A DNA stretch of 64,000 bases. Origin: Eledone cirrhosa. Taxonomy: Eukaryota. Position 1 is the first letter of the stretch; each line of letters opens with the position of its first letter. Shown in pieces: positions 1 to 63,854 of this stretch. Below the pieces are notes generated by a model. It saw nothing but the letters and a program-made list of their open reading frames with translations, made no database searches and was not told where the DNA came from. Location of the stretch: assembly GCA_964016885.1 (NCBI GenBank), contig OZ024744.1, positions 43,276,001-43,340,000 on the forward strand. The letters are read 5' to 3'. The position numbers were made by a program, and so were the translations under genes.

Positions 1-34
1 GAAGCAATGCGAGGGGACTGTGTAATATGGTCAC
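1..34 (-). CDS. Partial exon X1 (cut by the window edge): ..DHITQSPRIA..
   Basis: Same sequence as the X1 exon at 1719-1778; acceptor AG corresponds to plus-strand CT at 35-36. Confidence 0.65.
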   Translation of the reverse strand, partial: MTILHSPLALL

Positions 35-3000
35 CTAGAATATATAAACAAAATCATAGTAAACCTACATGTATATATACAAATAACATTACAAATACAG
101 GAAACAGTTATTAGATTTATTATCTCTGATATATACATATATACACCAGGTCCAAACATATATGGACCAAACTCCTACTGCCACTGCCATTTATATATAT
201 ATATTTATATATAGTGAAAGGATTCAGGACGCCAACTACTTAGATCCGTAAATATACATTTACTACTAAATTTTCTATAATCATGGCAACAGTCCTAATA
301 AAGCAAATTTATTCTTACATACACACACACAGAGATTGCACACTCACAAACTCACACTCACACAAACACAAACAGGGCTCACACAAACTCAAAAAAGCAT
401 CACCGGTGAAACACACCCAAACAGGTACACAATGAATTAATATACAACCCAATATACCTATATGTATACATCAACATACACATAATACCAACATCACTTC
501 ACTTATATATGTACACACAATTTTATTCAATGGGTCCACCTAACACATTACATAAACTTAGAATGTATACAGATATACAATATAACGTCAATTTGATATT
601 AATGTTGAAACACGTGTAATAGTTTTCTGTACTAACTGGTAGGAATCGGTTTGAAATACAACTTACTTTCTTTTGATCCACCTCTTATGTGTGTGCCTGA
701 GTCAGAGACAAGGATCTCTACAGGAGTCACACCTGGAAAAATATACAGAAGAAAAGAATAATAAAAGCTAGAAGGCTTTCTTGAGAAGAGTTTGTTGTCA
801 AGTTGAAGAAAGGGTAGAATGAGTTGTCATTTGTTTAATCAACTAGATCAAATTATACGGTTTGTTCTCTCAAGGACATGCTTACTTTTCCCACAAATCT
901 AAAACTTACAAAAGGAGTAAAGTGTGGTTAGTCTTGAATTATGAGAGAAACATTCTACAGTTTCCTACTGGTCCTTAAAATCAGATTTATATAGTGGTTT
1001 ACCAAATATTTAGGGTACTGGCAGATGTAGTGGAGAAGAGGATGCAGCATATGAACAATGAAGGGTGACAAGAAATTGTGAAGAACTGTAGGATAAAATT
1101 TGATAAAGAAGAGAATACTGATCTCTGAAATAATTCAATCTAACTCAATGAATCTAGTGTAACATTTATCTTCTCATTTGAATCACATGTAATGTCATTC
1201 TTTCTCAGTTATCTCTGATAATGCCCTAAAAAAGTCTAGCTATACTTTTGTCATCATTAAAAGGTCTTTGAGGAAGTCAATAAAATGTTTATTCTGGATT
1301 ATTTTATGGAGGTTGTAATAGAGAGTTTGATATTGTTGACTGAATTAAGTAGTTATAAATTTACTGTTGAAAACCTAAATAAGTTACTGAATAACTTATT
1401 ACATGATGTTTAAATTATAACTTACGCTTTTGAGAAGTTTCAGGCTTCATTGCAGCACTGGGAGGGTACACGGTAATATGGTCACCTAGAATATATAAAC
1501 AACATCATAGTAAACCTACATGTATATATATAAAAAACATTACAAATACATGGAATCAGTTATTAGATTGATTATCTCTGATATATAGATATATACACCA
1601 GGTGCAAAGACATATGGACCAAACTCCCACTGTCCCTCGCATATATATATATTTATATATAGAGAGAATGGATAAATTACTGAATAACTTATTAGATGAT
1701 GTTCAAACTATAACTTACCCTTTTTAGTTGATTTTGCCTCCATTGAAGCAATGCGAGGGGACTGTGTAATATGGTCACCTAGAATATATAAACAAAATCA
1801 TAGTAAACCTACATGTATATATACAAATAACATTACAAATACAGGAAACAGTTATTAGATTTATTATCTCTGATATATACATATATACACCAGGTCCAAA
1901 CATATATGGACCAAACTCCTACTGCCACTGCCATTTATATATATATATTTATATATAGTGAAAGGATTCAGGACGCCAACTACTTAGATCCGTAAATATA
2001 CATTTACTACTAAATTTTCTATAATCATGGCAACAGTCCTAATAAAGCAAATTTATTCTTACATACACACACACAGAGATTGCACACTCACAAACTCACA
2101 CTCACACAAACACAAACAGGGCTCACACAAACTCAAAAAAGCATCACCGGTGAAACACACCCAAACAGGTACACAATGAATTAATATACAACCCAATATA
2201 CCTATATGTATACATCAACATACACATAATACCAACATCACTTCACTTATATATGTACACACAATTTTATTCAATGGGTCCACCTAACACATTACATAAA
2301 CTTAGAATGTATACAGATATACAATATAACGTCAATTTGATATTAATGTTGAAACACGTGTAATAGTTTTCTGTACTAAATGGTAGGAATCGGTTTGAAA
2401 TACAACTTACTTTCTTTTGATCCACCTCTTATGTGTGTGCCTGAGTCAGAGACAAGGATCTCTACAGGAGTCACACCTGGAAAAATATACAGAAGAAAAG
2501 AATAATAAAAGCTAGAAGGCTTTCTTGAGAAGAGTTTGTTGTCAAGTTGAAGAAAGGGTAGAATGAGTTGTCATTTGTTTAATCAACTAGATCAAATTAT
2601 ACGGTTTGTTCTCTCAAGGACATGCTTACTTTTCCCACAAATCTAAAACTTACAAAAGGAGTAAAGTGTGGTTAGTCTTGAATTATGAGAGAAACATTCT
2701 ACAGTTTCCTACTGGTCCTTAAAATCAGATTTATATAGTGGTTTACCAAATATTTAGGGTACTGGCAGATGTAGTGGAGAAGAGGATGCAGCATATGAAC
2801 AATGAAGGGTGACAAGAAATTGTGAAGAACTGTAGGATAAAATCTTGATAAAGAAGAGAATACTGATCTCTGAAATAATTCAATCTAACTCAATGAATCT
2901 AGTGTAACATTTATCTTCTCATTTGAATCACATGTAATGTCATTCTTTCTCAGTTATCTCTGATAATGCCCTAAAAAAGTCTAGCTATACTTTTGTCATC

Positions 3001-3385
3001 ATTAAAAGGTCTTTGAGGAAGTCAATAAAATGTTTATTCTGGATTATTTTATGGAGGTTGTAATAGAGAGTTTGATATTGTTGACTGAATTAAGTAGTTA
3101 TAAATTTACTGTTGAAAACCTAAATAAGTTACTGAATAACTTATTACATGATGTTTAAATTATAACTTACGCTTTTGAGAAGTTTCAGGCTTCATTGCAG
3201 CACTGGGAGGGTACACGGTAATATGGTCACCTAGAATATATAAATAACATCATAGTAAACCTACATGTATATATATAAAAAACATTACAAATACATGGAA
3301 TCAGTTATTAGATTGATTATCTCTGATATATAGATATATACACCAGGTGCAAAGACATATGGACCAAACTCCCACTGTCCCTCGC

Positions 3386-3448
<63 letters not shown>

Positions 3449-5171: not shown

Positions 5172-5234
<63 letters not shown>

Positions 5235-6944: not shown

Positions 6945-7009
<65 letters not shown>

Positions 7010-8732: not shown

Positions 8733-8795
<63 letters not shown>

Positions 8796-10504: not shown

Positions 10505-10567
<63 letters not shown>

Positions 10568-12276: not shown

Positions 12277-12339
<63 letters not shown>

Positions 12340-15806: not shown

Positions 15807-15869
<63 letters not shown>

Positions 15870-17578: not shown

Positions 17579-17641
<63 letters not shown>

Positions 17642-32210: not shown

Positions 32211-32274
<64 letters not shown>

Positions 32275-33998
32275 GAGAGAATGGATAAATTACTGAATAA
32301 CTTATTAGGTGATGTTCAAACTATAACTTACCCTTTTTAGTTGATTTTGCCTCCATTGAAGCAATGCGAGGGGACTGTGTAATATGGTCACCTAGAATAT
32401 ATAAACAAAATCATAGTAAACCTACATGTATATATACAAATAACATTACAAATACAGGAAACAGTTATTAGATTTATTATCTCTGATATATACATATATA
32501 CACCAGGTCCAAACATATATGGACCAAACTCCTACTGCCACTGCCATTTATATATATATATTTATATATAGTGAAAGGATTCAGGACGCCAACTACTTAG
32601 ATCCGTAAATATACATTTACTACTAAATTTTCTATAATCATGGCAACAGTCCTAACAAAGCAAATATATTCTTACCTACTTGCACACTCACAAACTCACA
32701 CTCACACAAACACAAACAGGGCTCACACACACTCAAAAAAGCATCACCGGTGAAACACACCCAAACAGGTACACAATGAATTAATATACAACCCAATATA
32801 CCTATATGTATACATCAACATACACATAATACCAACATCACTTCACTTATATATGTACACACAATTTTATTCAATAGGTCCACCATACACATTACATAAA
32901 CTTAGAATGTATACAAATATACAATATAACGTAAATTTGATATTAATGTTGAAACATGTGTAATAGTTTTCTGTACTAACTGGTAGGAATGGGTTTGAAA
33001 TACAACTTACTTTCTTTTGATCCACCTCTTATGTATGTGCCTGAGTCAGAGACAAGGATCTCTACAGGAGTCACACCTGGAAAAAAATATACAGAAGAAA
33101 AGAATAATAAAAGCTAGAAGGCTTTCTTGAGAAGAGTTTGTTGTCAAGTTGAAGAAAGGGTAGAATGAGTTGTCATTTGTTTAATCAACTAGATCAAATT
33201 ATACGGTTTGTTCTCTCAAGGACATGCTTACTTTTCCCACAAATCTAAAACTTCCAAAAGGAGTAAAGTGTGGTTAGTCATATGTGGGCTGTCTTGAATT
33301 ATGAGAGAAACATTCTACAGTTTCCTACTGGTCCTTAAAATCAGATTTATATAGTGGTTTACCAAATATTTAGGGTACTGGCAGATGTAGTGGAGAAGAG
33401 GATGCAGCGTATGAACAATGAAGGGTGACAAGAAATTGGGAAGAAATGTAGGACAAAGTTTTGATAAAGAAGAGAATACTGATCTCTGAAATAATTCAAA
33501 CTACCTCAATGAATCTTGTGCAACATTTATCTTCTCATTTGAATCACATGTAATGTCATTCTTTCTCAGCTATCTCTGATAATGCCCTAAAAAAGTCTAG
33601 CTATACTTTTGTCATCATTACAAGGTCTTTGAGGAAGTCAATAAAATGTTTATTCTGGATTATTTTATGGAGGTTGTAATACAGAGTTTGATATTGTTGA
33701 CTGAATTAAGTAGTTATGAATTTACTGTTGAAAACCTAAATAAGTTACTGAATAACTTATTACATGATGTTTAAATTATAACTTACTCTTTTGAGTAGTT
33801 TCAGGCTTCATTGCAGCACTGGGAGGGTACACGGTAATATGGTCACCTAGAATATATAAACAACATCATAGTAAACCTACATGTATATATACAAATAACA
33901 TTACAAATACATGGAATCAGTTATTAGATTGATTATCTCTGATAAATACATATATACAACAGGTGCAAACACATAGGGATCAAAGTCCCACTGTCCCT

Positions 33999-34032
<34 letters not shown>

Positions 34033-39783: not shown

Positions 39784-39839
<56 letters not shown>

Positions 39840-42800
39840 ATGGATAAATTACTGAATAACTTATTAGATGATGTTCAAACTATAACTTACCCTTTTTAGT
39901 TGATTTTGCCTCCATTGAAGCAATGCGAGGGGACTGTGTAATATGGTCACCTAGAATATATAAACAAAATCATAGTAAACCTACATGTATATATACAAAT
40001 AACATTACAAATACAGGAAACAGTTATTAGATTTATTATCTCTGATATATACATATATACACCAGGTCCAAACATATATGGACCAAACTCCTACTGCCAC
40101 TGCCATTTATATATATATATTTATATATAGTGAAAGGATTCAGGACGCCAACTACTTAGATCCGTAAATATACATTTACTACTAAATTTTCTATAATCAT
40201 GGCAACAGTCCTAACAAAGCAAATATATTCTTACCTACTTGCACACTCACAAACTCACACTCACACAAACACAAACAGGGCTCACACACACTCAAAAAAG
40301 CATCACCGGTGAAACACACCCAAACAGGTACACAATGAATTAATATACAACCCAATATACCTATATGTATACATCAACATACACATAATACCAACATCAC
40401 TTCACTTATATATGTACACACAATTTTATTCAATAGGTCCACCATACACATTACATAAACTTAGAATGTATACAAATATACAATATAACGTAAATTTGAT
40501 ATTAATGTTGAAACATGTGTAATAGTTTTCTGTACTAACTGGTAGGAATGGGTTTGAAATACAACTTACTTTCTTTTGATCCACCTCTTATGTATGTGCC
40601 TGAGTCAGAGACAAGGATCTCTACAGGAGTCACACCTGGAAAAAAATATACAGAAGAAAAGAATAATAAAAGCTAGAAGGCTTTCTTGAGAAGAGTTTGT
40701 TGTCAAGTTGAAGAAAGGGTAGAATGAGTTGTCATTTGTTTAATCAACTAGATCAAATTATACGGTTTGTTCTCTCAAGGACATGCTTACTTTTCCCACA
40801 AATCTAAAACTTCCAAAAGGAGTAAAGTGTGGTTAGTCATATGTGGGCTGTCTTGAATTATGAGAGAAACATTCTACAGTTTCCTACTGGTCCTTAAAAT
40901 CAGATTTATATAGTGGTTTACCAAATATTTAGGGTACTGGCAGATGTAGTGGAGAAGAGGATGCAGCGTATGAACAATGAAGGGTGACAAGAAATTGGGA
41001 AGAAATGTAGGACAAAGTTTTGATAAAGAAGAGAATACTGATCTCTGAAATAATTCAAACTACCTCAATGAATCTTGTGCAACATTTATCTTCTCATTTG
41101 AATCACATGTAATGTCATTCTTTCTCAGCTATCTCTGATAATGCCCTAAAAAAGTCTAGCTATACTTTTGTCATCATTACAAGGTCTTTGAGGAAGTCAA
41201 TAAAATGTTTATTCTGGATTATTTTATGGAGGTTGTAATACAGAGTTTGATATTGTTGACTGAATTAAGTAGTTATGAATTTACTGTTGAAAACCTAAAT
41301 AAGTTACTGAATAACTTATTACATGATGTTTAAATTATAACTTACTCTTTTGAGTAGTTTCAGGCTTCATTGCAGCACTGGGAGGGTACACGGTAATATG
41401 GTCACCTAGAATATATAAACAACATCATAGTAAACCTACATGTATATATACAAATAACATTACAAATACATGGAATCAGTTATTAGATTGATTATCTCTG
41501 ATAAATACATATATACAACAGGTGCAAACACATAGGGACCAAAGTCCCACTGTCCCTCGCATATATATATATATATATATACATGAAGATAGACATAGAA
41601 TATTCGAAAATATTCTGCATGTTTAAATAAACATTTTGAAGACCTAATCGCTATAGAATAGAATACGTCACGTATTACAATTAGATTCTCGATAAAAGCA
41701 AGGGAAGTAACCTACGCGTTTTATTCTCATTAGAAATCTTCAGGATTACATATCCAGTGCTTTTATCGAGAATGACACAGCTAGAGACTTATAGAATACT
41801 TAGCTGTGTACAGGAACTGGTTTGAAAGAGCGGTTGCCGGTCCGGCAGAAATTAGAAATTGGATTAAATGCTCTGAAATAGCGATATATATGTGAAGATA
41901 GACATGATATGTGAAGATTTCTAATGAGAATGAAACGCGTAGGTTACTTCCCTTGCTTTTATCGAGAATCTAATTGTAATACGTGACGTATTCTATTCTA
42001 TAGCGATTAGGTCTTCAAAATGTTTATTTAAACATACAGAATATTTTCGAATATTCTATGTCTATCTTCACATATATATCGCTATTTCAGAGCATTTAAT
42101 CCATTATATATATATATATATTTATATATAGAGAGAATGGATAAATTACTGAATAACTTATTAGATGATGTTCAAACTATAACTTACTCTTTTTAGTTGA
42201 TTTTGGCTCCATTGAAGCAATGCGAGGGGACTGTGTAATATGGTCACCTAGAATATATAAACAAAATCATAGTAAACCTACATGTATATATACAAATAAC
42301 ATTACAAATACAGGAAACAGTTATTAGATTCATTATCTCTGATATATACATATATACACCAGGTCCAAACATATATGGACCAAACTCCCACTGCCACTGC
42401 CATTTATATATATATATTTATATATAGTGAAAGGATTCAGGACGCCAACTACTTAGATCCGTAAATATACATTTACTACTAAATTTTCTATAATCATGGC
42501 AACAGTCCTAATAAAGCAAATTCATTCTTACATACACACGCACAGAGATTGCACACACACAAACTCACACTCACACAAACACAAACAGAGCTCACACACA
42601 CTCAAAAAAGCATCACCGGTGAAACACACCCAAACAGGTACACAATGAATTAATATACAACCCAATATACCTATATGTATACATCAACATACACATAATA
42701 CCAACATCACTTCACTTATATATGTACATACAATTTTATTCAATAGGTCCACCTAACACATTACATAAACTTAGAATGTATACAAATATACAATATAACG

Positions 42801-43866
42801 TCAATTTGATATTAATGTTGAAACACGTGTAATAGTTTTCTGTACTAACTGGTAGGAATGGGTTTGAAATACAACTTACTTTCTTTTGATCCACCTCTTA
42901 TGTGTGTGCCTGAGTCAGAGACAAGGATCTCTACAGGAGTCACACCTGGAAAAAATATACAGAAGAAAAGAATAATAAAAGCTAGAAGGCTTTCTTGAGA
43001 AGAGTTTGTTGTCAAGTTGAAGAAAGGGTAGAATGAGTTGTCATTTGTTTAATCAACTAGATCAAATTATACGGTTTGATCTCTCAAGGACATGCTTACT
43101 TTTCCCACAAATCTAAAACTTCCAAAAAGAGTAAAGTGTGGTTAGTCATATTTGGGATGTCTTGAATTATGAGAGAAACATTCTACAGTTTCCTACTGGT
43201 CCTTAAAATCAGATTTATATAGTGGTTTACCAAATATTTAGGGTACTGGCAGATATAGTGGAGAAGAGGATGCAGCATATGAACAATGAAGGGTGACAAG
43301 AAATTGTGAAGAACTGTAGGATAAAATCTTGATAAAGAAGAGAATACTGATCTCTGAAATAATTCAATCTAACTCAATGAATCTAGTGTAACATTTATCT
43401 TCTCATTTGAATCACATGTAATGTCATTCTTTCTCAGTTATCTCTGATAATGCCCTAAAAAAGTCTAGCTATACTTTTGTCATCATTAAAAGGTCTTTGA
43501 GGAAGTCAATAAAATGTTTATTCTGGATTATTTTATGGAGGTTGTAATAGAGAGTTTGATATTGTTGACTGAATTAAGTAGTTATAAATTTACTGTTGAA
43601 AACCTAAATAAGTTACTGAATAACTTATTACATGATGTTTAAATTATAACTTACGCTTTTGAGAAGTTTCAGGCTTCATTGCAGCACTGGGAGGGTACAC
43701 GGTAATATGGTCACCTAGAATATATAAACAACATCATAGTAAACCTACATGTATATATATAAAAAACATTACAAATACATGGAATCAGTTATTAGATTGA
43801 TTATCTCTGATATATAGATATATACACCAGGTGCAAAGACATATGGACCAAACTCCCACTGTCCCT

Positions 43867-49900: not shown

Positions 49901-52900
49901 TCTGGATTATTTTATGGAGGTTGTAATAGAGAGTTTGATATTGTTGACTGAATTAAGTAGTTATAAATTTACTGTTGAAAACCTAAATAAGTTACTGAAT
50001 AACTTATTACATGATGTTTAAATTATAACTTACGCTTTTGAGAAGTTTCAGGCTTCATTGCAGCACTGGGAGGGTACACGGTAATATGGTCACCTAGAAT
50101 ATATAAACAACATCATAGTAAACCTACATGTATATATATAAAAAACATTACAAATACATGGAATCAGTTATTAGATTTATTATCTCTGATATATACATAT
50201 ATACACCAGGTCCAAACATATATGGACCAAACTCCTACTGCCACTGCCATTTATATATATATATTTATATATAGTGAAAGGATTCAGGACGCCAACTACT
50301 TAGATCCGTAAATATACATTTACTACTAAATTTTCTATAATCATGGCAACAGTCCTAACAAAGCAAATATATTCTTACCTACTTGCACACTCACAAACTC
50401 ACACTCACACAAACACAAACAGGGCTCACACACACTCAAAAAAGCATCACCGGTGAAACACACCCAAACAGGTACACAATGAATTAATATACAACCCAAT
50501 ATACCTATATGTATACATCAACATACACATAATACCAACATCACTTCACTTATATATGTACACACAATTTTATTCAATAGGTCCACCATACACATTACAT
50601 AAACTTAGAATGTATACAAATATACAATATAACGTCAATTTGATATTAATGTTGAAACATGTGTAATAGTTTTCTGTACTAACTGGTAGGAATGGGTTTG
50701 AAATACAACTTACTTTCTTTTGATCCACCTGTTATGTATGTGCCTGAGTCAGAGACAAGGATCTCTACAGGAGTCACACCTGGAAAAAAATATACAGAAG
50801 AAAAGAATAATAAAAGCTAGAAGGCTTTCTTGAGAAGAGTTTGTTGTCAAGTTGAAGAAAGGGTAGAATGAGTTGTCATTTGTTTAATCAACTAGATCAA
50901 ATTATACGGTTTGTTCTCTCAAGGACATGCTTACTTTTCCCACAAATCTAAAACTTCCAAAAGGAGTAAAGTGTGGTTAGTCATATGTGGGCTGTCTTGA
51001 ATTATGAGAGAAACATTCTACAGTTTCCTACTGGTCCTTAAAATCAGATTTATATAGTGGTTTACCAAATATTTAGGGTACTGGCAGATGTAGTGGAGAA
51101 GAGGATGCAGCGTATGAACAATGAAGGGTGACAAGAAATTGGGAAGAAATGTAGGACAAAGTTTTGATAAAGAAGAGAATACTGATCTCTGAAATAATTC
51201 AAACTACCTCAATGAATCTTGTGCAACATTTATCTTCTCATTTGAATCACATGTAATGTCATTCTTTCTCAGCTATCTCTGATAATGCCCTAAAAAAGTC
51301 TAGCTATACTTTTGTCATCATTACAAGGTCTTTGAGGAAGTCAATAAAATGTTTATTCTGGATTATTTTATGGAGGTTGTAATACAGAGTTTGATATTGT
51401 TGACTGAATTAAGTAGTTATGAATTTACTGTTGAAAACCTAAATAAGTTACTGAATAACTTATTACATGATGTTTAAATTATAACTTACTCTTTTGAGTA
51501 GTTTCAGGCTTCATTGCAGCACTGGGAGGGTACACGGTAATATGGTCACCTAGAATATATAAACAACATCATAGTAAACCTACATGTATATATACAAATA
51601 ACATTACAAATACAGGGAATCAGTTATTAGATTGATTATCTCTGATATATACATATATACAACAGGTGCAAACACATAGGGACCAAAGTCCCACTGTCCC
51701 TCGCATATATATATATATATATATATATGAAGATAGACATAGAATATTCGAAAATATTCTGTATGTTTAAATAAACATTTTGAAGACCTAATCGCTATAG
51801 AATAGAATACGTCACGTATTACAATTAGATTCTCGATAAAAGCAAGGGAAGTAACCTACGCGTTTCATTCTCATTAGAAATCTTCAGGATTACATATCCA
51901 GTGCTTTTATCGAGAATGACACAGCTAGAGACTTATAGAATACTTAGCTGTGTACAGGAACTGGTTTGAAAGAGCGGTTGCCGGTCCGGCAGAAATTAGA
52001 AATTGGATTAAATGCTCTGAAATAGCGATATATATGTGAAGATAGACATGATATGTGAAGATTTCTAATGAGAATGAAACGCGTAGGTTACTTCCCTTGC
52101 TTTTATCGAGAATCTAATTGTAATACGTGACGTATTCTATTCTATAGCGATTAGGTCTTCAAAATGTTTATTTAAACATACAGAATATTTTCGAATATTC
52201 TATGTCTATCTTCACATATATATCGCTATTTCAGAGCATTTAATCCATTATATATATATATATATTTATATATAGAGAGAATGGATAAATTACTGAATAA
52301 CTTATTAGATGATGTTCAAACTATAACTTACTCTTTTTAGTTGATTTTGGCTCCATTGAAGCAATGCGAGGGGACTGTGTAATATGGTCACCTAGAATAT
52401 ATAAACAAAATCATAGTAAACCTACATGTATATATACAAATAACATTACAAATACAGGAAACAGTTATTAGATTCATTATCTCTGATATATACATATATA
52501 CACCAGGTCCAAACATATATGGACCAAACTCCCACTGCCACTGCCATTTATATATATATATTTATATATAGTGAAAGGATTCAGGACGCCAACTACTTAG
52601 ATCCGTAAATATACATTTACTACTAAATTTTCTATAATCATGGCAACAGTCCTAATAAAGCAAATTCATTCTTACATACACACGCACAGAGATTGCACAC
52701 ACACAAACTCACACTCACACAAACACAAACAGAGCTCACACACACTCAAAAAAGCATCACCGGTGAAACACACCCAAACAGGTACACAATGAATTAATAT
52801 ACAACCCAATATACCTATATGTATACATCAACATACACATAATACCAACATCACTTCACTTATATATGTACATACAATTTTATTCAATAGGTCCACCTAA

Positions 52901-54013
52901 CACATTACATAAACTTAGAATGTATACAAATATACAATATAACGTCAATTTGATATTAATGTTGAAACACGTGTAATAGTTTTCTGTACTAACTGGTAGG
53001 AATGGGTTTGAAATACAACTTACTTTCTTTTGATCCACCTCTTATGTGTGTGCCTGAGTCAGAGACAAGGATCTCTACAGGAGTCACACCTGGAAAAAAT
53101 ATACAGAAGAAAAGAATAATAAAAGCTAGAAGGCTTTCTTGAGAAGAGTTTGTTGTCAAGTTGAAGAAAGGGTAGAATGAGTTGTCATTTGTTTAATCAA
53201 CTAGATCAAATTATACGGTTTGATCTCTCAAGGACATGCTTACTTTTCCCACAAATCTAAAACTTCCAAAAAGAGTAAAGTGTGGTTAGTCATATTTGGG
53301 ATGTCTTGAATTATGAGAGAAACATTCTACAGTTTCCTACTGGTCCTTAAAATCAGATTTATATAGTGGTTTACCAAATATTTAGGGTACTGGCAGATAT
53401 AGTGGAGAAGAGGATGCAGCATATGAACAATGAAGGGTGACAAGAAATTGTGAAGAACTGTAGGATAAAATCTTGATAAAGAAGAGAATACTGATCTCTG
53501 AAATAATTCAATCTAACTCAATGAATCTAGTGTAACATTTATCTTCTCATTTGAATCACATGTAATGTCATTCTTTCTCAGTTATCTCTGATAATGCCCT
53601 AAAAAAGTCTAGCTATACTTTTGTCATCATTAAAAGGTGTTTGAGGAAGTCAATAAAATGTTTATTCTGGATTATTTTATGGAGGTTGTAATAGAGAGTT
53701 TGATATTGTTGACTGAATTAAGTAGTTATAAATTTACTGTTGAAAACCTAAATAAGTTACTGAATAACTTATTACATGATGTTTAAATTATAACTTACGC
53801 TTTTGAGAAGTTTCAGGCTTCATTGCAGCACTGGGAGGGTACACGGTAATATGGTCACCTAGAATATATAAACAACATCATAGTAAACCTACATGTATAT
53901 ATATAAAAAACATTACAAATACATGGAATCAGTTATTAGATTGATTATCTCTGATATATAGATATATACACCAGGTGCAAAGACATATGGACCAAACTCC
54001 CACTGTCCCTCGC

Positions 54014-54074
<61 letters not shown>

Positions 54075-57000
54075 GAGAGAATGGATAAATTACTGAATAA
54101 CTTATTAGGTGATGTTCAAACTATAACTTACCCTTTTTAGTTGATTTTGCCTCCATTGAAGCAATGCGAGGGGACTGTGTAATATGGTCACCTAGAATAT
54201 ATAAACAAAATCATAGTAAACCTACATGTATATATACAAATAACATTACAAATACAGGAAACAGTTATTAGATTTATTATCTCTGATATATACATATATA
54301 CACCAGGTCCAAACATATATGGACCAAACTCCTACTGCCACTGCCATTTATATATATATATTTATATATAGTGAAAGGATTCAGGACGCCAACTACTTAG
54401 ATCCGTAAATATACATTTACTACTAAATTTTCTATAATCATGGCAACAGTCCTAACAAAGCAAATATATTCTTACCTACTTGCACACTCACAAACTCACA
54501 CTCACACAAACACAAACAGGGCTCACACACACTCAAAAAAGCATCACCGGTGAAACACACCCAAACAGGTACACAATGAATTAATATACAACCCAATATA
54601 CCTATATGTATACATCAACATACACATAATACCAACATCACTTCACTTATATATGTACACACAATTTTATTCAATAGGTCCACCATACACATTACATAAA
54701 CTTAGAATGTATACAAATATACAATATAACGTCAATTTGATATTAATGTTGAAACATGTGTAATAGTTTTCTGTACTAACTGGTAGGAATGGGTTTGAAA
54801 TACAACTTACTTTCTTTTGATCCACCTGTTATGTATGTGCCTGAGTCAGAGACAAGGATCTCTACAGGAGTCACACCTGGAAAAAAATATACAGAAGAAA
54901 AGAATAATAAAAGCTAGAAGGCTTTCTTGAGAAGAGTTTGTTGTCAAGTTGAAGAAAGGGTAGAATGAGTTGTCATTTGTTTAATCAACTAGATCAAATT
55001 ATACGGTTTGTTCTCTCAAGGACATGCTTACTTTTCCCACAAATCTAAAACTTCCAAAAGGAGTAAAGTGTGGTTAGTCATATGTGGGCTGTCTTGAATT
55101 ATGAGAGAAACATTCTACAGTTTCCTACTGGTCCTTAAAATCAGATTTATATAGTGGTTTACCAAATATTTAGGGTACTGGCAGATGTAGTGGAGAAGAG
55201 GATGCAGCGTATGAACAATGAAGGGTGACAAGAAATTGGGAAGAAATGTAGGACAAAGTTTTGATAAAGAAGAGAATACTGATCTCTGAAATAATTCAAA
55301 CTACCTCAATGAATCTTGTGCAACATTTATCTTCTCATTTGAATCACATGTAATGTCATTCTTTCTCAGCTATCTCTGATAATGCCCTAAAAAAGTCTAG
55401 CTATACTTTTGTCATCATTACAAGGTCTTTGAGGAAGTCAATAAAATGTTTATTCTGGATTATTTTATGGAGGTTGTAATACAGAGTTTGATATTGTTGA
55501 CTGAATTAAGTAGTTATGAATTTACTGTTGAAAACCTAAATAAGTTACTGAATAACTTATTACATGATGTTTAAATTATAACTTACTCTTTTGAGTAGTT
55601 TCAGGCTTCATTGCAGCACTGGGAGGGTACACGGTAATATGGTCACCTAGAATATATAAACAACATCATAGTAAACCTACATGTATATATACAAATAACA
55701 TTACAAATACAGGGAATCAGTTATTAGATTGATTATCTCTGATATATACATATATACAACAGGTGCAAACACATAGGGACCAAAGTCCCACTGTCCCTCG
55801 CATATATATATATATATATATATATGAAGATAGACATAGAATATTCGAAAATATTCTGTATGTTTAAATAAACATTTTGAAGACCTAATCGCTATAGAAT
55901 AGAATACGTCACGTATTACAATTAGATTCTCGATAAAAGCAAGGGAAGTAACCTACGCGTTTCATTCTCATTAGAAATCTTCAGGATTACATATCCAGTG
56001 CTTTTATCGAGAATGACACAGCTAGAGACTTATAGAATACTTAGCTGTGTACAGGAACTGGTTTGAAAGAGCGGTTGCCGGTCCGGCAGAAATTAGAAAT
56101 TGGATTAAATGCTCTGAAATAGCGATATATATGTGAAGATAGACATGATATGTGAAGATTTCTAATGAGAATGAAACGCGTAGGTTACTTCCCTTGCTTT
56201 TATCGAGAATCTAATTGTAATACGTGACGTATTCTATTCTATAGCGATTAGGTCTTCAAAATGTTTATTTAAACATACAGAATATTTTCGAATATTCTAT
56301 GTCTATCTTCACATATATATCGCTATTTCAGAGCATTTAATCCATTATATATATATATATATTTATATTTAGAGAGAATGGATAAATTACTGAATAACTT
56401 ATTAGATGATGTTCAAACTATAACTTACTCTTTTTAGTTGATTTTGGCTCCATTGAAGCAATGCGAGGGGACTGTGTAATATGGTCACCTAGAATATATA
56501 AACAAAACATAGTAAACCTACATGTATATATACAAATAACATTACAAATACAGGAAACAGTTATTAGATTCATTATCTCTGATATATACATATATACACC
56601 AGGTCCAAACATATATGGACCAAACTCCCACTGCCACTGTCATTTATATATATATATTTATATATAGTGAAAGGATTCAGGACGCCAACTACTTAGATCC
56701 GTAAATATACATTTACTACTAAATTTTCTATAATCATGGCAACAGTCCTAATAAAGCAAATTCATTCTTACATACACACGCACAGAGATTGCACACACAC
56801 AAACTCACACTCACACAAACACAAACAGAGCTCACACACACTCAAAAAAGCATCACCGGTGAAACACACCCAAACAGGTACACAATGAATTAATATACAA
56901 CCCAATATACCTATATGTATACATCAACATACACATAATACCAACATCACTTCACTTATATATGTACATACAATTTTATTCAATAGGTCCACCTAACACA

Positions 57001-58109
57001 TTACATAAACTTAGAATGTATACAAATATACAATATAACGTCAATTTGATATTAATGTTGAAACACGTGTAATAGTTTTCTGTACTAACTGGTAGGAATG
57101 GGTTTGAAATACAACTTACTTTCTTTTGATCCACCTCTTATGTGTGTGCCTGAGTCAGAGACAAGGATCTCTACAGGAGTCACACCTGGAAAAAATATAC
57201 AGAAGAAAAGAATAATAAAAGCTAGAAGGCTTTCTTGAGAAGAGTTTGTTGTCAAGTTGAAGAAAGGGTAGAATGAGTTGTCATTTGTTTAATCAACTAG
57301 ATCAAATTATACGGTTTGATCTCTCAAGGACATGCTTACTTTTCCCACAAATCTAAAACTTCCAAAAAGAGTAAAGTGTGGTTAGTCATATTTGGGATGT
57401 CTTGAATTATGAGAGAAACATTCTACAGTTTCCTACTGGTCCTTAAAATCAGATTTATATAGTGGTTTACCAAATATTTAGGGTACTGGCAGATATAGTG
57501 GAGAAGAGGATGTAGCATATGAACAATGAAGGGTGACAAGAAATTGTGAAGAACTGTAGGATAAAATCTTGATAAAGAAGAGAATACTGATCTCTGAAAT
57601 AATTCAATCTAACTCAATGAATCTAGTGTAACATTTATCTTCTCATTTGAATCACATGTAATGTCATTCTTTCTCAGCTATCTCTGATAATGCCCTAAAA
57701 AAGTCTAGCTATACTTTTGTCATCATTAAAAGGTCTTTGAGGAAGTCAATAAAATGTTTATTCTGGATTATTTTATGGAGGTTGTAATAGAGAGTTTGAT
57801 ATTGTTGACTGAATTAAGTAGTTATAAATTTACTGTTGAAAACCTAAATAAGTTACTGAATAACTTATTACATGATGTTTAAATTATAACTTACGCTTTT
57901 GAGAAGTTTCAGGCTTCATTGCAGCACTGGGAGGGTACACGGTAATATGGTCACCTAGAATATATAAACAACATCATAGTAAACCTACATGTATATATAT
58001 AAAAAACATTACAAATACATGGAATCAGTTATTAGATTGATTATCTCTGATATATAGATATATACACCAGGTGCAAAGACATATGGACCAAACTCCCACT
58101 GTCCCTCGC

Positions 58110-58174
<65 letters not shown>

Positions 58175-59913
58175 GAGAGAATGGATAAATTACTGAATAA
58201 CTTATTAGGTGATGTTCAAACTATAACTTACTCTTTTTAGTTGATTTTGGCTCCATTGAAGCAATGCGAGGGGACTGTGTAATATGGTCACCTAGAATAT
58301 ATAAACAAAATCATAGTAAACCTACATGTATATATACAAATAACATTACAAATACAGGAAACAGTTATTAGATTCATTATCTCTGATATATACATATATA
58401 CACCAGGTCCAAACATATATGGACCAAACTCCCACTGCCACTGCCATTTATATATATATATTTATATATAGTGAAAGGATTCAGGACGCCAACTACTTAG
58501 ATCCGTAAATATACATTTACTACTAAATTTTCTATAATCATGGCAACAGTCCTAATAAAGCAAATTCATTCTTACATACACACGCACAGAGATTGCACAC
58601 ACACAAACTCACACTCACACAAACACAAACAGAGCTCACACACACTCAAAAAAGCATCACCGGTGAAACACACCCAAACAGGTACACAATGAATTAATAT
58701 ACAACCCAATATACCTATATGTATACATCAACATACACATAATACCAACATCACTTCACTTATATATGTACATACAATTTTATTCAATAGGCCCACCTAA
58801 CACATTACATAAACTTAGAATGTATACAAATATACAATATAACGTCAATTTGATATTAATGTTGAAACACGTGTAATAGTTTTCTGTACTAACTGGTAGG
58901 AATGGGTTTGAAATACAACTTACTTTCTTTTGATCCACCTCTTATGTGTGTGCCTGAGTCAGAGACACGGATCTCTACAGGAGTCACACCTGGAAAAAAT
59001 ATACAGAAGAAAAGAATAATAAAAGCTAGAAGGCTTTCTTGAGAAGAGTTTGTTGTCAAGTTGAAGAAAGGGTAGAATGAGTTGTCATTTGTTTAATCAA
59101 CTAGATCAAATTATACGGTTTGATCTCTCAAGGACATGCTTACTTTTCCCACAAATCTAAAACTTCCAAAAAGAGTAAAGTGTGGTTAGTCATATTTGGG
59201 ATGTCTTGAATTATGAGAGAAACATTCTACAGTTTCCTACTGGTCCTTAAAATCAGATTTATATAGTGGTTTACCAAATATTTAGGGTACTGGCAGATAT
59301 AGTGGAGAAGAGGATGCAGCATATGAACAATGAAGGGTGACAAGAAATTGTGAAGAACTGTAGGATAAAATCTTGATAAAGAAGAGAATACTGATCTCTG
59401 AAATAATTCAATCTAACTCAATGAATCTAGTGTAACATTTATCTTCTCATTTGAATCACATGTAATGTCATTCTTTCTCAGTTATCTCTGATAATGCCCT
59501 AAAAAAGTCTAGCTATACTTTTGTCATCATTAAAAGGTGTTTGAGGAAGTCAATAAAATGTTTATTCTGGATTATTTTATGGAGGTTGTAATAGAGAGTT
59601 TGATATTGTTGACTGAATTAAGTAGTTATAAATTTACTGTTGAAAACCTAAATAAGTTACTGAATAACTTATTACATGATGTTTAAATTATAACTTACGC
59701 TTTTGAGAAGTTTCAGGCTTCATTGCAGCACTGGGAGGGTACACGGTAATATGGTCACCTAGAATATATAAACAACATCATAGTAAACCTACATGTATAT
59801 ATATAAAAAACATTACAAATACATGGAATCAGTTATTAGATTGATTATCTCTGATATATAGATATATACACCAGGTGCAAAGACATATGGACCAAACTCC
59901 CACTGTCCCTCGC

Positions 59914-59974
<61 letters not shown>

Positions 59975-62900
59975 GAGAGAATGGATAAATTACTGAATAA
60001 CTTATTAGGTGATGTTCAAACTATAACTTACCCTTTTTAGTTGATTTTGCCTCCATTGAAGCAATGCGAGGGGACTGTGTAATATGGTCACCTAGAATAT
60101 ATAAACAAAATCATAGTAAACCTACATGTATATATACAAATAACATTACAAATACAGGAAACAGTTATTAGATTTATTATCTCTGATATATACATATATA
60201 CACCAGGTCCAAACATATATGGACCAAACTCCTACTGCCACTGCCATTTATATATATATATTTATATATAGTGAAAGGATTCAGGACGCCAACTACTTAG
60301 ATCCGTAAATATACATTTACTACTAAATTTTCTATAATCATGGCAACAGTCCTAACAAAGCAAATATATTCTTACCTACTTGCACACTCACAAACTCACA
60401 CTCACACAAACACAAACAGGGCTCACACACACTCAAAAAAGCATCACCGGTGAAACACACCCAAACAGGTACACAATGAATTAATATACAACCCAATATA
60501 CCTATATGTATACATCAACATACACATAATACCAACATCACTTCACTTATATATGTACACACAATTTTATTCAATAGGTCCACCATACACATTACATAAA
60601 CTTAGAATGTATACAAATATACAATATAACGTCAATTTGATATTAATGTTGAAACATGTGTAATAGTTTTCTGTACTAACTGGTAGGAATGGGTTTGAAA
60701 TACAACTTACTTTCTTTTGATCCACCTGTTATGTATGTGCCTGAGTCAGAGACAAGGATCTCTACAGGAGTCACACCTGGAAAAAAATATACAGAAGAAA
60801 AGAATAATAAAAGCTAGAAGGCTTTCTTGAGAAGAGTTTGTTGTCAAGTTGAAGAAAGGGTAGAATGAGTTGTCATTTGTTTAATCAACTAGATCAAATT
60901 ATACGGTTTGTTCTCTCAAGGACATGCTTACTTTTCCCACAAATCTAAAACTTCCAAAAGGAGTAAAGTGTGGTTAGTCATATGTGGGCTGTCTTGAATT
61001 ATGAGAGAAACATTCTACAGTTTCCTACTGGTCCTTAAAATCAGATTTATATAGTGGTTTACCAAATATTTAGGGTACTGGCAGATGTAGTGGAGAAGAG
61101 GATGCAGCGTATGAACAATGAAGGGTGACAAGAAATTGGGAAGAAATGTAGGACAAAGTTTTGATAAAGAAGAGAATACTGATCTCTGAAATAATTCAAA
61201 CTACCTCAATGAATCTTGTGCAACATTTATCTTCTCATTTGAATCACATGTAATGTCATTCTTTCTCAGCTATCTCTGATAATGCCCTAAAAAAGTCTAG
61301 CTATACTTTTGTCATCATTACAAGGTCTTTGAGGAAGTCAATAAAATGTTTATTCTGGATTATTTTATGGAGGTTGTAATACAGAGTTTGATATTGTTGA
61401 CTGAATTAAGTAGTTATGAATTTACTGTTGAAAACCTAAATAAGTTACTGAATAACTTATTACATGATGTTTAAATTATAACTTACTCTTTTGAGTAGTT
61501 TCAGGCTTCATTGCAGCACTGGGAGGGTACACGGTAATATGGTCACCTAGAATATATAAACAACATCATAGTAAACCTACATGTATATATACAAATAACA
61601 TTACAAATACAGGGAATCAGTTATTAGATTGATTATCTCTGATATATACATATATACAACAGGTGCAAACACATAGGGACCAAAGTCCCACTGTCCCTCG
61701 CATATATATATATATATATATATATGAAGATAGACATAGAATATTCGAAAATATTCTGTATGTTTAAATAAACATTTTGAAGACCTAATCGCTATAGAAT
61801 AGAATACGTCACGTATTACAATTAGATTCTCGATAAAAGCAAGGGAAGTAACCTACGCGTTTCATTCTCATTAGAAATCTTCAGGATTACATATCCAGTG
61901 CTTTTATCGAGAATGACACAGCTAGAGACTTATAGAATACTTAGCTGTGTACAGGAACTGGTTTGAAAGAGCGGTTGCCGGTCCGGCAGAAATTAGAAAT
62001 TGGATTAAATGCTCTGAAATAGCGATATATATGTGAAGATAGACATGATATGTGAAGATTTCTAATGAGAATGAAACGCGTAGGTTACTTCCCTTGCTTT
62101 TATCGAGAATCTAATTGTAATACGTGACGTATTCTATTCTATAGCGATTAGGTCTTCAAAATGTTTATTTAAACATACAGAATATTTTCGAATATTCTAT
62201 GTCTATCTTCACATATATATCGCTATTTCAGAGCATTTAATCCATTATATATATATATATATTTATATTTAGAGAGAATGGATAAATTACTGAATAACTT
62301 ATTAGATGATGTTCAAACTATAACTTACTCTTTTTAGTTGATTTTGGCTCCATTGAAGCAATGCGAGGGGACTGTGTAATATGGTCACCTAGAATATATA
62401 AACAAAACATAGTAAACCTACATGTATATATACAAATAACATTACAAATACAGGAAACAGTTATTAGATTCATTATCTCTGATATATACATATATACACC
62501 AGGTCCAAACATATATGGACCAAACTCCCACTGCCACTGTCATTTATATATATATATTTATATATAGTGAAAGGATTCAGGACGCCAACTACTTAGATCC
62601 GTAAATATACATTTACTACTAAATTTTCTATAATCATGGCAACAGTCCTAATAAAGCAAATTCATTCTTACATACACACGCACAGAGATTGCACACACAC
62701 AAACTCACACTCACACAAACACAAACAGAGCTCACACACACTCAAAAAAGCATCACCGGTGAAACACACCCAAACAGGTACACAATGAATTAATATACAA
62801 CCCAATATACCTATATGTATACATCAACATACACATAATACCAACATCACTTCACTTATATATGTACATACAATTTTATTCAATAGGTCCACCTAACACA

Positions 62901-63854
62901 TTACATAAACTTAGAATGTATACAAATATACAATATAACGTCAATTTGATATTAATGTTGAAACACGTGTAATAGTTTTCTGTACTAACTGGTAGGAATG
63001 GGTTTGAAATACAACTTACTTTCTTTTGATCCACCTCTTATGTGTGTGCCTGAGTCAGAGACAAGGATCTCTACAGGAGTCACACCTGGAAAAAATATAC
63101 AGAAGAAAAGAATAATAAAAGCTAGAAGGCTTTCTTGAGAAGAGTTTGTTGTCAAGTTGAAGAAAGGGTAGAATGAGTTGTCATTTGTTTAATCAACTAG
63201 ATCAAATTATACGGTTTGATCTCTCAAGGACATGCTTACTTTTCCCACAAATCTAAAACTTCCAAAAAGAGTAAAGTGTGGTTAGTCATATTTGGGATGT
63301 CTTGAATTATGAGAGAAACATTCTACAGTTTCCTACTGGTCCTTAAAATCAGATTTATATAGTGGTTTACCAAATATTTAGGGTACTGGCAGATATAGTG
63401 GAGAAGAGGATGTAGCATATGAACAATGAAGGGTGACAAGAAATTGTGAAGAACTGTAGGATAAAATCTTGATAAAGAACAGAATACTGATCTCTGAAAT
63501 AATTCAATCTAACTCAATGAATCTAGTGTAACATTTATCTTCTCATTTGAATCACATGTAATGTCATTCTTTCTCAGTTATCTCTGATAATGCCCTAAAA
63601 AAGTCTAGCTATACTTTTGTCATCATTAAAAGGTCTTTGAGGAAGTCAATAAAATGTTTATTCTGGATTATTTTATGGAGGTTGTAATAGAGAGTTTGAT
63701 ATTGTTGACTGAATTAAGTAGTTATAAATTTACTGTTGAAAACCTAAATAAGTTACTGAATAACTTATTACATGATGTTTAAATTATAACTTACGCTTTT
63801 GAGAAGTTTCAGGCTTCATTGCAGCACTGGGAGGGTACACGGTAATATGGTCAC
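1..63854 (-). CDS. Internal part of a putative giant multi-exon gene: about 100 symmetric phase-1 short exons encoding a 62-aa Ser/Thr/Pro-rich repeat protein
   Basis: Each unit has three minus-strand segments bounded by YAG and GTAAGT, of 60, 60 and 66 nt, with a shared stop-free frame. I saw no indels or stops in any exon copy, whereas the introns carry many indels. No start, stop or transcript evidence is available in the window. Confidence 0.75.
319..432. repeat. CA-rich low-complexity intronic tract (GU-rich on the transcribed strand), present in every unit
   Basis: acacacacacagagattgcacactcacaaactcacactcacacaaacacaaac...; a 14-bp deletion variant occurs in units starting at 5318, 8879, 10651 and 15953. 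Confidence 0.85.
667..732 (-). CDS. Exon X3 (66 nt, phase 1-1): (R)VTPVEILVSDSGTHIRGGSKE; one per unit
   Basis: Minus strand reads cttttattattcttttcttctgtatatttttccag|GTGTGACTCC...GGATCAAAAGAAA|gtaagt. Strong polypyrimidine tract and consensus donor. The other two frames contain TGA. Confidence 0.8.
1426..1485 (-). CDS. Exon X2 (60 nt, phase 1-1): (G)DHITVYPPSAAMKPETSQK; one per unit
   Basis: Minus strand reads gttgtttatatattctag|GTGACCATATTACCGTG...CAAAAGC|gtaagt, with an open frame compatible with X3 and X1. Confidence 0.78.
1719..1778 (-). CDS. Exon X1 (60 nt, phase 1-1): (S)DHITQSPRIASMEAKSTKK; located at anchor-26 to anchor+33 of each unit
   Basis: Minus strand reads ttttgtttatatattctag|GTGACCATATTACACAG...AAAAAGG|gtaagt. 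Paralog of X2. Confidence 0.78.
3386..3448. repeat. Hypervariable compound (TA)n microsatellite in the X1-X2 intron (example copy)
   Basis: Alleles seen: short with one TT interruption (about 1641-1661), compound with two TT interruptions (here), long nearly pure (about 32214-32274), and (TA)n(GA)m (about 28129-28183 and 39787-39839). Confidence 0.95.
28914..28979 (-). CDS. Exon X3, B-type variant: VTPVEILVSDSGTYIRGGSKE (H>Y)
   Basis: Same splice signals; plus strand cttatgtatgtg instead of cttatgtgtgtg. Confidence 0.75.
29690..29749 (-). CDS. Exon X2, B-type variant: DHITVYPPSAAMKPETTQK(S)
   Basis: Plus strand acttactcttttgagtagt; splice signals intact. Confidence 0.75.
29928..30447. mobile_element. 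520-bp non-coding fold-back/MITE-like insertion in intronic (TA)n, copy 1
   Basis: Absent from A and C units. 159-bp inverted arms at 29928-30086 and 30256-30414 (a few mismatches in this copy); a second 46-bp inverted pair at 30204-30249 and 30402-30447; TA runs on both sides. Confidence 0.8.
30532..30591 (-). CDS. Exon X1 variant adjacent to the insertion: DHITQSPRIASMEPKSTKK(S)
   Basis: Plus strand acttactctttttagttgattttggctcc; A>P change and junction G>S change. Confidence 0.75.
34029..34548. mobile_element. 520-bp fold-back insertion, copy 2
   Basis: Same sequence and intronic site as copy 1; arms appear perfectly complementary. Confidence 0.8.
41584..42103. mobile_element. 520-bp fold-back insertion, copy 3
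   Basis: Same sequence and site; shares the cgttttattc variant with copy 1. Confidence 0.8.
45667..46186. mobile_element. 520-bp fold-back insertion, copy 4
   Basis: Same sequence and site. Confidence 0.8.
47963..48482. mobile_element. 520-bp fold-back insertion, copy 5
   Basis: Same sequence and site. Confidence 0.8.
51728..52247. mobile_element. 520-bp fold-back insertion, copy 6
   Basis: Same sequence and site. Confidence 0.8.
55825..56344. mobile_element. 520-bp fold-back insertion, copy 7
   Basis: Same sequence and site. Confidence 0.8.
58924..58989 (-). CDS. Exon X3, private variant: VTPVEIRVSDSGTHIRGGSKE (L>R)
   Basis: Plus strand gagacacgg (C at 58968); splice sites intact. Confidence 0.7.
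61725..62244. mobile_element. 520-bp fold-back insertion, copy 8
   Basis: Same sequence and site. Confidence 0.8.
62329..62388 (-). CDS. Exon X1 (EPK variant), 5'-most X1 copy in the window
   Basis: tag|GT...AAGA|gtaagt. Corresponds to the DHITQSPRIASMEPKSTKK segment embedded in the ORF-track entry 62318..62512. Confidence 0.75.
63020..63085 (-). CDS. Exon X3, 5'-most X3 copy in the window
   Basis: ttttttccag|GT...GAAA|gtaagt, same exon sequence as 667-732. Confidence 0.75.
63795..63854 (-). CDS. Exon X2, first exon of the window in transcription order
   Basis: ttctag|GT...AAGC|gtaagt, same exon sequence as 1426-1485. Confidence 0.75.

What the first reader, a model, noticed from the sequence alone, without database searches (positions are those of the whole stretch)
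1..63854. The apparent satellite hides a giant gene: about 100 in-frame short exons in a tandem three-exon cassette
Seen: on the minus strand every unit has three AG...GTAAGT-bounded segments (X1 60 nt, X2 60 nt, X3 66 nt). All lengths are multiples of 3, all begin with GT, and all are open in the same phase-1 frame. In unit 1 the introns are 233, 693 and 632 bp. The spliced repeat is SDHITQSPRIASMEAKSTKKGDHITVYPPSAAMKPETSQKRVTPVEILVSDSGTHIRGGSKE (62 aa, 20/62 S+T+P, no C/W/F/N, near-neutral charge). I count 34 X3, 34 X2 and 32 complete X1 exons, about 6.2 kb of coding sequence. Known: arrays of short symmetric exons build repetitive regions such as titin PEVK and tropoelastin, and the Schistosoma micro-exon genes. 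Inference: a very large, probably disordered or O-glycosylated repeat protein whose length changes with array copy number. ORF finders miss it and repeat masking would hide it. I do not recognise the peptide.
Basis: partly seen in the sequence, partly recalled or inferred. Interest (0 to 1): 0.92.

Follow-up and report, generated by a model that had tools for sequence, protein, structure and literature searches.

The report
Giant exon array, octopod gene family
What looks like satellite DNA is the middle of a 224-kb gene, the longest of at least 16 copies in an octopus-type genome, whose protein would be a short basic head followed by hundreds of tiny repeated exons, though broken exons upstream may stop this copy from making the giant protein.

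Summary
In detail: 100 minus-strand phase-1 exons (34 X2, 34 X3, 32 X1; 6,204 nt), no stop in the spliced frame against 136 and 166 in the others. The array runs on to 286 copies over 213 kb. Comparing paralogs gave both gene ends: a 73-codon ATG exon with a phase-1 donor, and a last exon with a stop and AATAAA. Sixteen first/last pairs enclose such arrays on two chromosomes. This copy is the longest; skipping broken exons it gives 5,813 aa. The genome is molluscan, octopod-like. No database relative was found. There is no signal peptide, so a mucin is unlikely. Across old exon types the frame is kept while exons diverge about four times faster than their introns. Against the giant protein: three frameshifted, splice-competent exons lie upstream of the whole window (constitutive frame ends near codon 1,001); in the recent expansion exons mutate like introns; no RNA data were available. 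A sister copy has an intact frame of about 880 codons. Verdict: a real, apparently undescribed gene family with a DAZ/NBPF/Flag-like exon array. Expression, function and translation of this copy's window exons are unproven.

The parts
1..63854 (-). Homogenised tandem array of X1-X2-X3 exon/intron cassettes: 100 complete exons, the middle of a 286-copy array at G000:C28 43,195,460-43,408,610 (window = 43,276,001-43,340,000). Parts of the same gene outside the window, in G000:C28 coordinates, minus strand: first coding exon 43,418,130-43,417,911 (ATG, 73 codons, phase-1 donor); frame-breaking splice-competent exons at 43,377,530 (61 nt), 43,365,514 and 43,361,936 (58 nt) and 43,219,947 (TAA); terminal stop exon from 43,194,172.
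1719..1778 (-). X1 exon, example copy (60 nt, phase 1-1); A-type
1426..1485 (-). X2 exon, example copy (60 nt, phase 1-1); A-type, an old duplicate of X1 (16 of 60 exon bases differ, 8 of 119 flanking intron bases)
667..732 (-). X3 exon, example copy (66 nt, phase 1-1); B-type
63795..63854 (-). 5'-most exon inside the window (X2)
1..34 (-). X1 exon cut by the window edge; complete at G000:C28 43,275,975-43,276,034
50034..50779 (-). Unit without X1 (X3 followed directly by X2); the frame is unaffected

Best explanation
SHOWN in DNA: the window is the middle of one gene of an octopod-type gene family with at least 16 complete copies (10 on C28, 6 on C18, two subfamilies). Each copy has a 73-75-codon first exon, a run of 51-66-nt phase-1 exons and a short stop exon. 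Because every exon is phase 1-1, whole exon-plus-intron cassettes can be gained or lost without breaking the frame; here one three-exon cassette grew to about 90 near-identical units. INFERRED mechanism of growth: unequal crossing-over and gene conversion (exact 5.9-kb and 11.7-kb block duplications). INFERRED protein: intracellular, with a basic amphipathic, Cys-bearing head that anchors it (membrane by lipidation, about 50%; nucleus or chromatin, about 30%). The head carries a long Ser/Thr/Pro/Lys-rich disordered tail with many SP/TP sites, acting as a spacer or phosphorylation-tuned brush whose length differs by copy. INFERRED context: a fast-evolving ampliconic family of the germline type (about 40%). 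For this copy the recent expansion looks neutral, and the window's exons are translated only in transcripts that skip three upstream frameshifted exons (about 40% that this happens to a meaningful degree).
For: First exon at 17 places, 15 open full-length. Terminal exon at 18 places. Sixteen pairs in matching orientation; family exons were seen directly, or by pattern hits, between the pair members at 15 of the 16 (the pair at C28 126.7 Mb was not looked into). The model frame from ATG to stop has one stop, at its end, after 5,813 aa. The sister copy at 45.14 Mb has 40 splice-competent repeat exons with no break until a stop in the last one. Exon 1 shows purifying selection: pS 0.150 vs pN 0.017 between subfamily-2 branches and 0.22 vs 0.11 between subfamilies; its one indel is 6 nt. 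Between subfamilies 23-29 of 60-66 exon bases differ but only 8-9 of 75-77 upstream intron bases, with frame and splice sites kept. In A-type units pN is 0.19 and pS 0.20 vs intron 0.052, and the gap remains at both A/T and G/C sites. Stops: 2 seen vs 7.8 expected in 223 changes, p about 0.015. The terminal stop alternates TAA/TAG. Head: 17 K/R and 4 D/E in 45 aa, helical moment peak at residues 8-28, no hydrophobic segment; tail 33% S+T+P with 189 SP/TP sites. Inverted head-to-head pair at about 99% identity.
Against: No expression data. Four splice-competent frame-breaking exons in this copy (numbers 46, 57, 63 and 273 of 282); all window exons lie past the first three. In the homogenised array exon and intron substitution rates are equal (0.113 vs 0.106 per base; indels 2 vs 3.6 expected). 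Amino-acid change in the repeats is near neutral (50.5 synonymous vs 57.5 expected, p 0.28). The stop test is soft: the caller missed at least one stop-bearing copy, and splice-dead copies, the 63-nt class and 5 long edges were left out. Other copies are damaged too: TGA in exon 1 at 46.47 Mb, frameshifted exon 1 at 28.78 Mb, a 59-nt exon at 45.28 Mb, TAG in a 63-nt exon at C28 0.09 Mb. The tail sits on the order/disorder boundary (0.420 vs 0.423). Function, tissue and anchoring are inferred, with no homolog to lean on.
Confidence: 0.6

Rival explanations
1. This copy is a decaying member of a real family. Its array expanded as a neutral macrosatellite after, or regardless of, loss of function, and the window's exons are never usefully translated.
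For: Three frameshifted exons precede the window; the 58-nt deletion is present in two duplicated units, so it is probably real. Exon and intron mutation rates are equal in the array. Several sister copies carry breaks. A 5-kb insertion lies inside the array.
Against: Exon 1, its donor, the terminal exon and AATAAA are intact. Symmetric exons can be skipped freely. No break lies among the roughly 210 copies between 43,361,000 and 43,220,000, though recent expansion alone could give that.
Confidence: 0.35
2. The gene is spliced constitutively into a protein of about 5,800 aa (about 620 kDa); the breaks are assembly errors or a rare allele.
For: 278 of 286 copies are intact. The 61-nt break is one extra base in an A run.
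Against: The 58-nt deletion recurs in two sister units, a GG donor sits next to the 61-nt copy, and a TAA occurs in the 3' region. Paralogs carry their own private breaks.
Confidence: 0.12
3. A secreted or surface mucin-like, O-glycosylated protein.
For: 33% S+T+P; short symmetric exons are typical of mucin-like stalks (general knowledge).
Against: No signal peptide, transmembrane segment or GPI-like tail in the model; the protein ends one or two residues after the repeats. The frame upstream of the ATG is not conserved in length between copies.
Confidence: 0.05
4. A non-genic satellite whose splice-like signals are chance.
For: The units are nearly identical, so the window alone holds only about three independent exons. 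No protein relative was found.
Against: Paired first and last exons at 16 loci, purifying selection on exon 1, and frame kept across exon types that differ at up to 48% of bases.
Confidence: 0.01

Closest known systems
Primate DAZ genes (Y chromosome, AZFc)
   Same: Multi-copy genes in head-to-head inverted pairs; a short repeat encoded by a tandemly amplified exon, variable between copies, with amplification and pruning of exons (PMC2322974, passages).
   Different: DAZ has RRM domains, an autosomal parent and 8-24 repeats of 24 aa. Here there is no Pfam domain, no parent was found, up to 282 exons occur, and the cassette has two or three exon types. Sex linkage and germline expression are not shown here.
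Spider flagelliform silk gene (Flag)
   Same: Exon-plus-intron repeats with introns nearly identical within the gene and exons changing faster (as summarised in PMC3563967, passages; the original paper was not seen).
   Different: Spidroins are secreted, with conserved terminal domains and long Gly/Pro exons (general knowledge); here the exons are 60-66 nt and there is no signal peptide.
Schistosoma micro-exon genes (MEG)
   Same: Coding region made mostly of short symmetric exons, multi-copy, high dN/dS, often disordered (PMC4350168 and PMC10526429, passages).
   Different: MEGs are secreted (signal peptide), mostly use 15-bp exons, have 10-20 exons and reach at most 189 aa. Here there are up to 282 homogenised exons and no signal peptide.
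Human genes with coding macrosatellites (NBPF/Olduvai, ANKRD36, ANKRD30A, LPA)
   Same: Long intragenic tandem duplications in lineage-expanded families (PMC4079513, passages).
   Different: No sequence relation found; those genes carry recognisable domains (general knowledge).
Titin PEVK and tropoelastin exon arrays
   Same: Disordered region built from many short in-frame exons (general knowledge; one search gave a listing only).
   Different: Single-copy conserved genes with folded domains or secretion; here no Ig/Fn3 or other domain exon was found, and the gene ends right after the repeats.
Cephalopod taxon-restricted clustered families (reflectins, suckerins, histidine-rich beak proteins)
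   Same: Clustered, lineage-restricted, low-complexity protein families in coleoids (PMC9068888, passages).
   Different: Composition differs (recalled: Met/Tyr/Arg-, Gly/Tyr/His- and His/Gly-rich); this family was not among those named in the passages seen.

Membership tests
Protein-coding gene with a tandem symmetric-exon array (DAZ/NBPF/Flag kind) | Repeat unit includes exon(s) and intron(s), same phase at both ends | tested here: met
Protein-coding gene with a tandem symmetric-exon array (DAZ/NBPF/Flag kind) | Unique first and last coding exons in frame with the array | tested here: met
Protein-coding gene with a tandem symmetric-exon array (DAZ/NBPF/Flag kind) | Repeat number differs between copies | tested here: met
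   282, 40 and 24 splice-competent repeat exons in three copies; spans of 51-224 kb. Variation between individuals not tested.
Protein-coding gene with a tandem symmetric-exon array (DAZ/NBPF/Flag kind) | Spliced transcript and protein exist | not testable with these tools
   No RNA run listed; the three runs laid behave like genomic DNA.
Protein-coding gene with a tandem symmetric-exon array (DAZ/NBPF/Flag kind) | Unbroken constitutive frame in this copy | tested here: not met
   Breaks at splice-competent exons 46, 57, 63 and 273 of 282; met in the 45.14-Mb sister copy up to its last repeat exon.
Mucin / secreted O-glycoprotein | Signal peptide or membrane anchor giving entry to the secretory pathway | tested here: not met
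   Highest hydropathy 0.72 over 19 residues and 0.91 over 9 residues in the first 50; hydropathy only, no dedicated predictor was available.
Mucin / secreted O-glycoprotein | S/T/P-rich repeats | tested here: inconclusive
   33% S+T+P, with 25% charged residues.
Schistosome MEG | Signal peptide; very short exons; short protein | tested here: not met
DAZ family | RRM domain | tested here: not met
   No Pfam family over cut-off in exon 1 or X3; no other coding exon found in the shared flanks.
Titin/PEVK-type giant muscle protein | Ig/Fn3 or kinase domains flanking the repeats | tested here: not met
   The model runs exon 1, repeats, stop; a weak exon missed by my simple splice scores cannot be excluded.
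Ampliconic sex-chromosome gene family | Located on the Z chromosome | tested here: inconclusive
   C28 (136 Mb) is listed after C27 (22 Mb), out of size order. But neither of 2 RH1 hits (domain of SPAG9 by recall; SPAG9 is a reported Z marker) is on C28, and 6 of 16 copies are on C18.
Ampliconic sex-chromosome gene family | Testis-restricted expression | not testable with these tools
   No RNA data.

The most novel reading that the evidence does not exclude
An octopod-specific ampliconic family of membrane- or chromatin-anchored disordered proteins under diversifying selection, probably germline and partly Z-linked. Tail length is set both by cassette number (about 20 to 280 exons per copy) and by exon skipping, so that this copy yields a ladder of isoforms up to about 620 kDa, among the largest disordered proteins known.
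Probability: 0.2. Interest if true: 0.85.

Novelty: new variant of a known kind. Interest (0 to 1): 0.62.

Why it matters
It shows a whole gene family hidden in DNA that would be masked as satellite, and gives its first and last exons, so it can now be tested by RT-PCR or existing octopus transcriptomes. Exons that diverge about four times faster than their own introns while keeping frame point to conflict-type evolution (reproduction, drive or immunity) in a group whose sex chromosomes were found only recently. It is also a natural series, from about 24 to 282 exons per copy, for asking how far an exon array can grow before poison exons and NMD kill the gene. The architecture itself is known from DAZ, NBPF, Flag and MEG, and no expression is shown, which caps the score.

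Tried and rejected
Expression: no RNA holder listed, which is no evidence either way. The three runs laid on one unit cover introns and show no exon-exon joint; they behave like genomic DNA of one sample and are not independent support.

Homologs: an X3-centred 46-aa query against 1.84 billion representatives gave 5 hits. Four sequences were read and all five looked up; they are unrelated repeat proteins matched by chance. Exon 1, alone or as an alignment, gave no hit in three searches (weak evidence by the tool's own warning), none in the Atlas and none over cut-off in Pfam.

Ab initio exon scans of the flanks found nothing I recognised at the time (the exon-1 donor and the terminal acceptor were in the lists but stood out only after paralog comparison). 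A hydrophobic frame after the last 63-nt exon at 28.86 Mb looked like a GPI or membrane tail, but its acceptor and first part are deleted in three other copies, so it was rejected. My first idea, a mammalian mucin such as MUC19, was dropped when the flanks proved invertebrate and haemocyanin genes were found. The Z-chromosome test was inconclusive. No structure model was obtained, so the head helix rests on a hydrophobic-moment calculation only. Earlier scan notes held nothing relevant.

Literature: searches found no description of this family; the single hit of one search is a pig butyrylcholinesterase paper, seen only as a listing. Supplements were not opened; predicted proteomes or Table S6 of PMC10925132 may bear on novelty and on the Z question.
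Full report
Observation. The minus strand holds 34 X2, 34 X3 and 32 X1 segments, each between AG and GTAAGT and each 60 or 66 nt. Joined, they give 6,204 nt with no stop in the phase-1 frame and 136 and 166 stops in the others. The units are 97.3-100% identical (40 random pairs), so the window alone is weak evidence for a gene: any intact cassette copied recently would look like this.

Extent. The window is G000:C28 43,276,001-43,340,000 in a 3.0-Gb assembly. Profile searches of 384 kb around it gave 286 exon copies from 43,408,610 down to about 43,195,460. Of these, 278 are intact, 4 are splice-dead, and 4 are splice-competent but frame-breaking (61 nt at 43,377,530; 58 nt at 43,365,514 and 43,361,936; TAA at 43,219,947). 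Diverged copies sit at both ends of the homogenised core.

Organism. The flanks are full of Helitron-, Gypsy- and LINE-like frames (labels from recall) and AT/AC microsatellites. The genome has five runs of seven molluscan haemocyanin units. One unit scores 494-501 bits against single units of PDB 6r83, 4yd9 and 1js8, and at best 385 and 368 against 3j32 and 8trz. From recall the first three entries are squid and octopus, the other two gastropod, and seven units is the octopod pattern. I therefore call the genome octopod-like.

Gene ends. Ancestral-type exons match at 154 places, the first 100 listed falling almost all in clusters on C28. Clusters near this one share about 22 kb upstream and at least 14 kb downstream at mostly 87-98% identity; one pair is a 99% head-to-head inversion. 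A more diverged copy at 28.8 Mb and a donor-motif search led to a second subfamily on C18 and C28 with its own 60/66-nt arrays and extra 63-, 51- and 66-nt exons. Sequence shared across subfamilies gave a first exon (43,418,130-43,417,911; ATG, 73 codons, phase-1 donor) and a last exon (from 43,194,172) that completes one codon, adds Met and stops, with AATAAA about 207 nt on. The first exon is found at 17 places, 15 open full-length, one with a TGA and one frameshifted. The last exon is found at 18 places. Sixteen pairs face each other across 51-224 kb, and this copy is the longest. The stop is TAA or TAG, or TAC in seven copies; in the two TAC copies translated, the frame reads on to a stop about 20 codons later. 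A tree of exon 1 with flanks separates a C28 clade holding this copy from a second subfamily, in which the six C18 copies and one C28 copy are nearly identical (the root is for drawing only).

Selection. Exon 1 shows purifying selection (pS 0.150 vs pN 0.017 between subfamily-2 branches, 0.22 vs 0.11 between subfamilies) and its one indel is in frame. Among 405 splice-competent copies (114 alleles) from the loci in hand, 109 alleles are open in the phase-1 frame and 110 have lengths divisible by three. The in-frame 54-nt class is shared by three gene copies, while each frameshifted allele was seen at one locus only. Exons diverge faster than the introns beside them: 16 of 60 vs 8 of 119 bases for X1 against X2 (p 0.0004), and 23-29 of 60-66 vs 8-9 of 75-77 between subfamilies. 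Across 16 A-type units pN is 0.19 and pS 0.20 vs intron 0.052 (120 non-independent pairs), and base composition does not explain the gap. Since pS is raised as much as pN, intron homogenisation by conversion, with exon differences kept, is at least as likely as plain positive selection. Stops are fewer than expected (2 vs 7.8, p about 0.015), but this test is soft. It left out splice-dead copies, the 63-nt class and five long edges, and my caller missed at least one stop-bearing copy.

Results against the giant protein. Within the roughly 90 recent units exons and introns mutate alike (0.113 vs 0.106 substitutions per base; 2 exon indels vs 3.6 expected). The first frame break is splice-competent exon 46 of 282, so constitutive splicing ends the frame near codon 1,001, upstream of every window exon. 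Skipping the four breaks gives 5,813 aa, about 624 kDa. The sister copy at 45.14 Mb is unbroken until a stop in its last (40th) repeat exon, about 880 codons; the one at 45.25 Mb breaks at exon 20 of 24. The family thus shows birth and death at both gene and exon level. Expression could not be tested (see Tried and rejected).

Likely working. The model protein has no hydrophobic segment. Its first 45 residues carry 17 K/R and 4 D/E, with an amphipathic stretch at about residues 8-28 and two Cys conserved in all 16 full-length first exons. The tail is 33% S+T+P, slightly basic, on the order/disorder boundary, with 189 SP/TP sites. I infer an intracellular protein: a basic, probably lipidated helix anchoring it to a membrane (or acting as a nuclear signal), towing a disordered tail whose length is set by cassette number and exon skipping. 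Multi-copy inverted amplicons, fast exon change and no relatives are what germline conflict families look like (general knowledge), so I favour a germline role at about 40%. C28 is listed out of size order, as sex chromosomes often are (convention recalled). But the domain of one reported Z marker maps to C1 and a small contig, and six copies are on C18, so Z linkage is unresolved.

Comparison with known systems. The layout resembles DAZ (amplified and pruned repeat exon, head-to-head copies; PMC2322974 passages), Flag (introns more uniform than exons; PMC3563967 passages), MEGs (short symmetric exons, high dN/dS, but secreted and small; PMC10526429 and PMC4350168 passages) and human intragenic macrosatellites (PMC4079513 passages). 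It is a member of none: no RRM, no signal peptide, no Pfam family, no database relative. It was not among the cephalopod-restricted families in the passages of PMC9068888, and searches found no description. Of PMC10925132 I read parts 1-2 of 5; of PMC13122204 and 10.1101/2024.12.09.627507, passages only; searches were seen as listings. No supplements were opened.

Verdict. A real and apparently undescribed octopod gene family with an extreme exon array: about 90% that the family is or recently was protein-coding, about 40% that this copy's window exons are translated. New variant of a known kind; interest 0.62.

Noticed in passing
window 52400-63900 and 28300-43700: Near-exact higher-order block duplications: 5,900-bp shift at 99.9% identity and 11,656-bp shift at 99.8%. 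Two unit subtypes (short or 782-bp X1-X2 intron) alternate in the right half.
   Followed up: yes
L003-L004, G000:C28 about 43,368,800-43,373,800: About 5-kb insertion in an X1-X2 intron of the array, with frames of 536 and 220 aa; it looks Penelope-like from recall, but Pfam gave no family.
   Followed up: partly
G000:C28 44.2 Mb and 45.47-45.58 Mb; C1:297.63 Mb; C2:171.11 Mb: Further exon clusters or single cassettes without a matched first exon, some in mixed orientation: probably truncated or scrambled copies.
   Followed up: no
L084 and related loci (C18 5,152,447; C18 9,333,331; C28 90,311): One 63-nt exon has a GC donor in subfamily 2 and a GT donor in the 28.86-Mb copy.
   Followed up: partly
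L095-L110, about 230 bases upstream of the ATG: The non-coding stretch before exon 1 differs by only 6-8% between subfamilies, less than synonymous sites of exon 1 (20-24%); a candidate promoter or 5' UTR.
   Followed up: no
G000:C1 173.74-173.91 Mb and C26 21.93-22.02 Mb: Five seven-unit haemocyanin genes, two of them in an inverted pair on C26, plus two unit hits on C27.
   Followed up: partly
G000 contig lengths: Very uneven karyotype: C1 443 Mb, C4 379 Mb, C6 103 Mb, then 61 down to 22 Mb (C16 only 0.8 Mb), with C28 at 136 Mb listed after them (lengths seen for 19 contigs in all).
   Followed up: partly
L013, G000:C28 43,466,437-43,466,636: A 200-base N gap 48 kb upstream of exon 1; none inside the gene span.
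   Followed up: no
G000:C28 43,034,400-43,034,671 and 54,371,357-54,371,638: Degenerate older A/B cassette pairs with dead acceptors, one lying 160 kb past this gene's end.
   Followed up: partly
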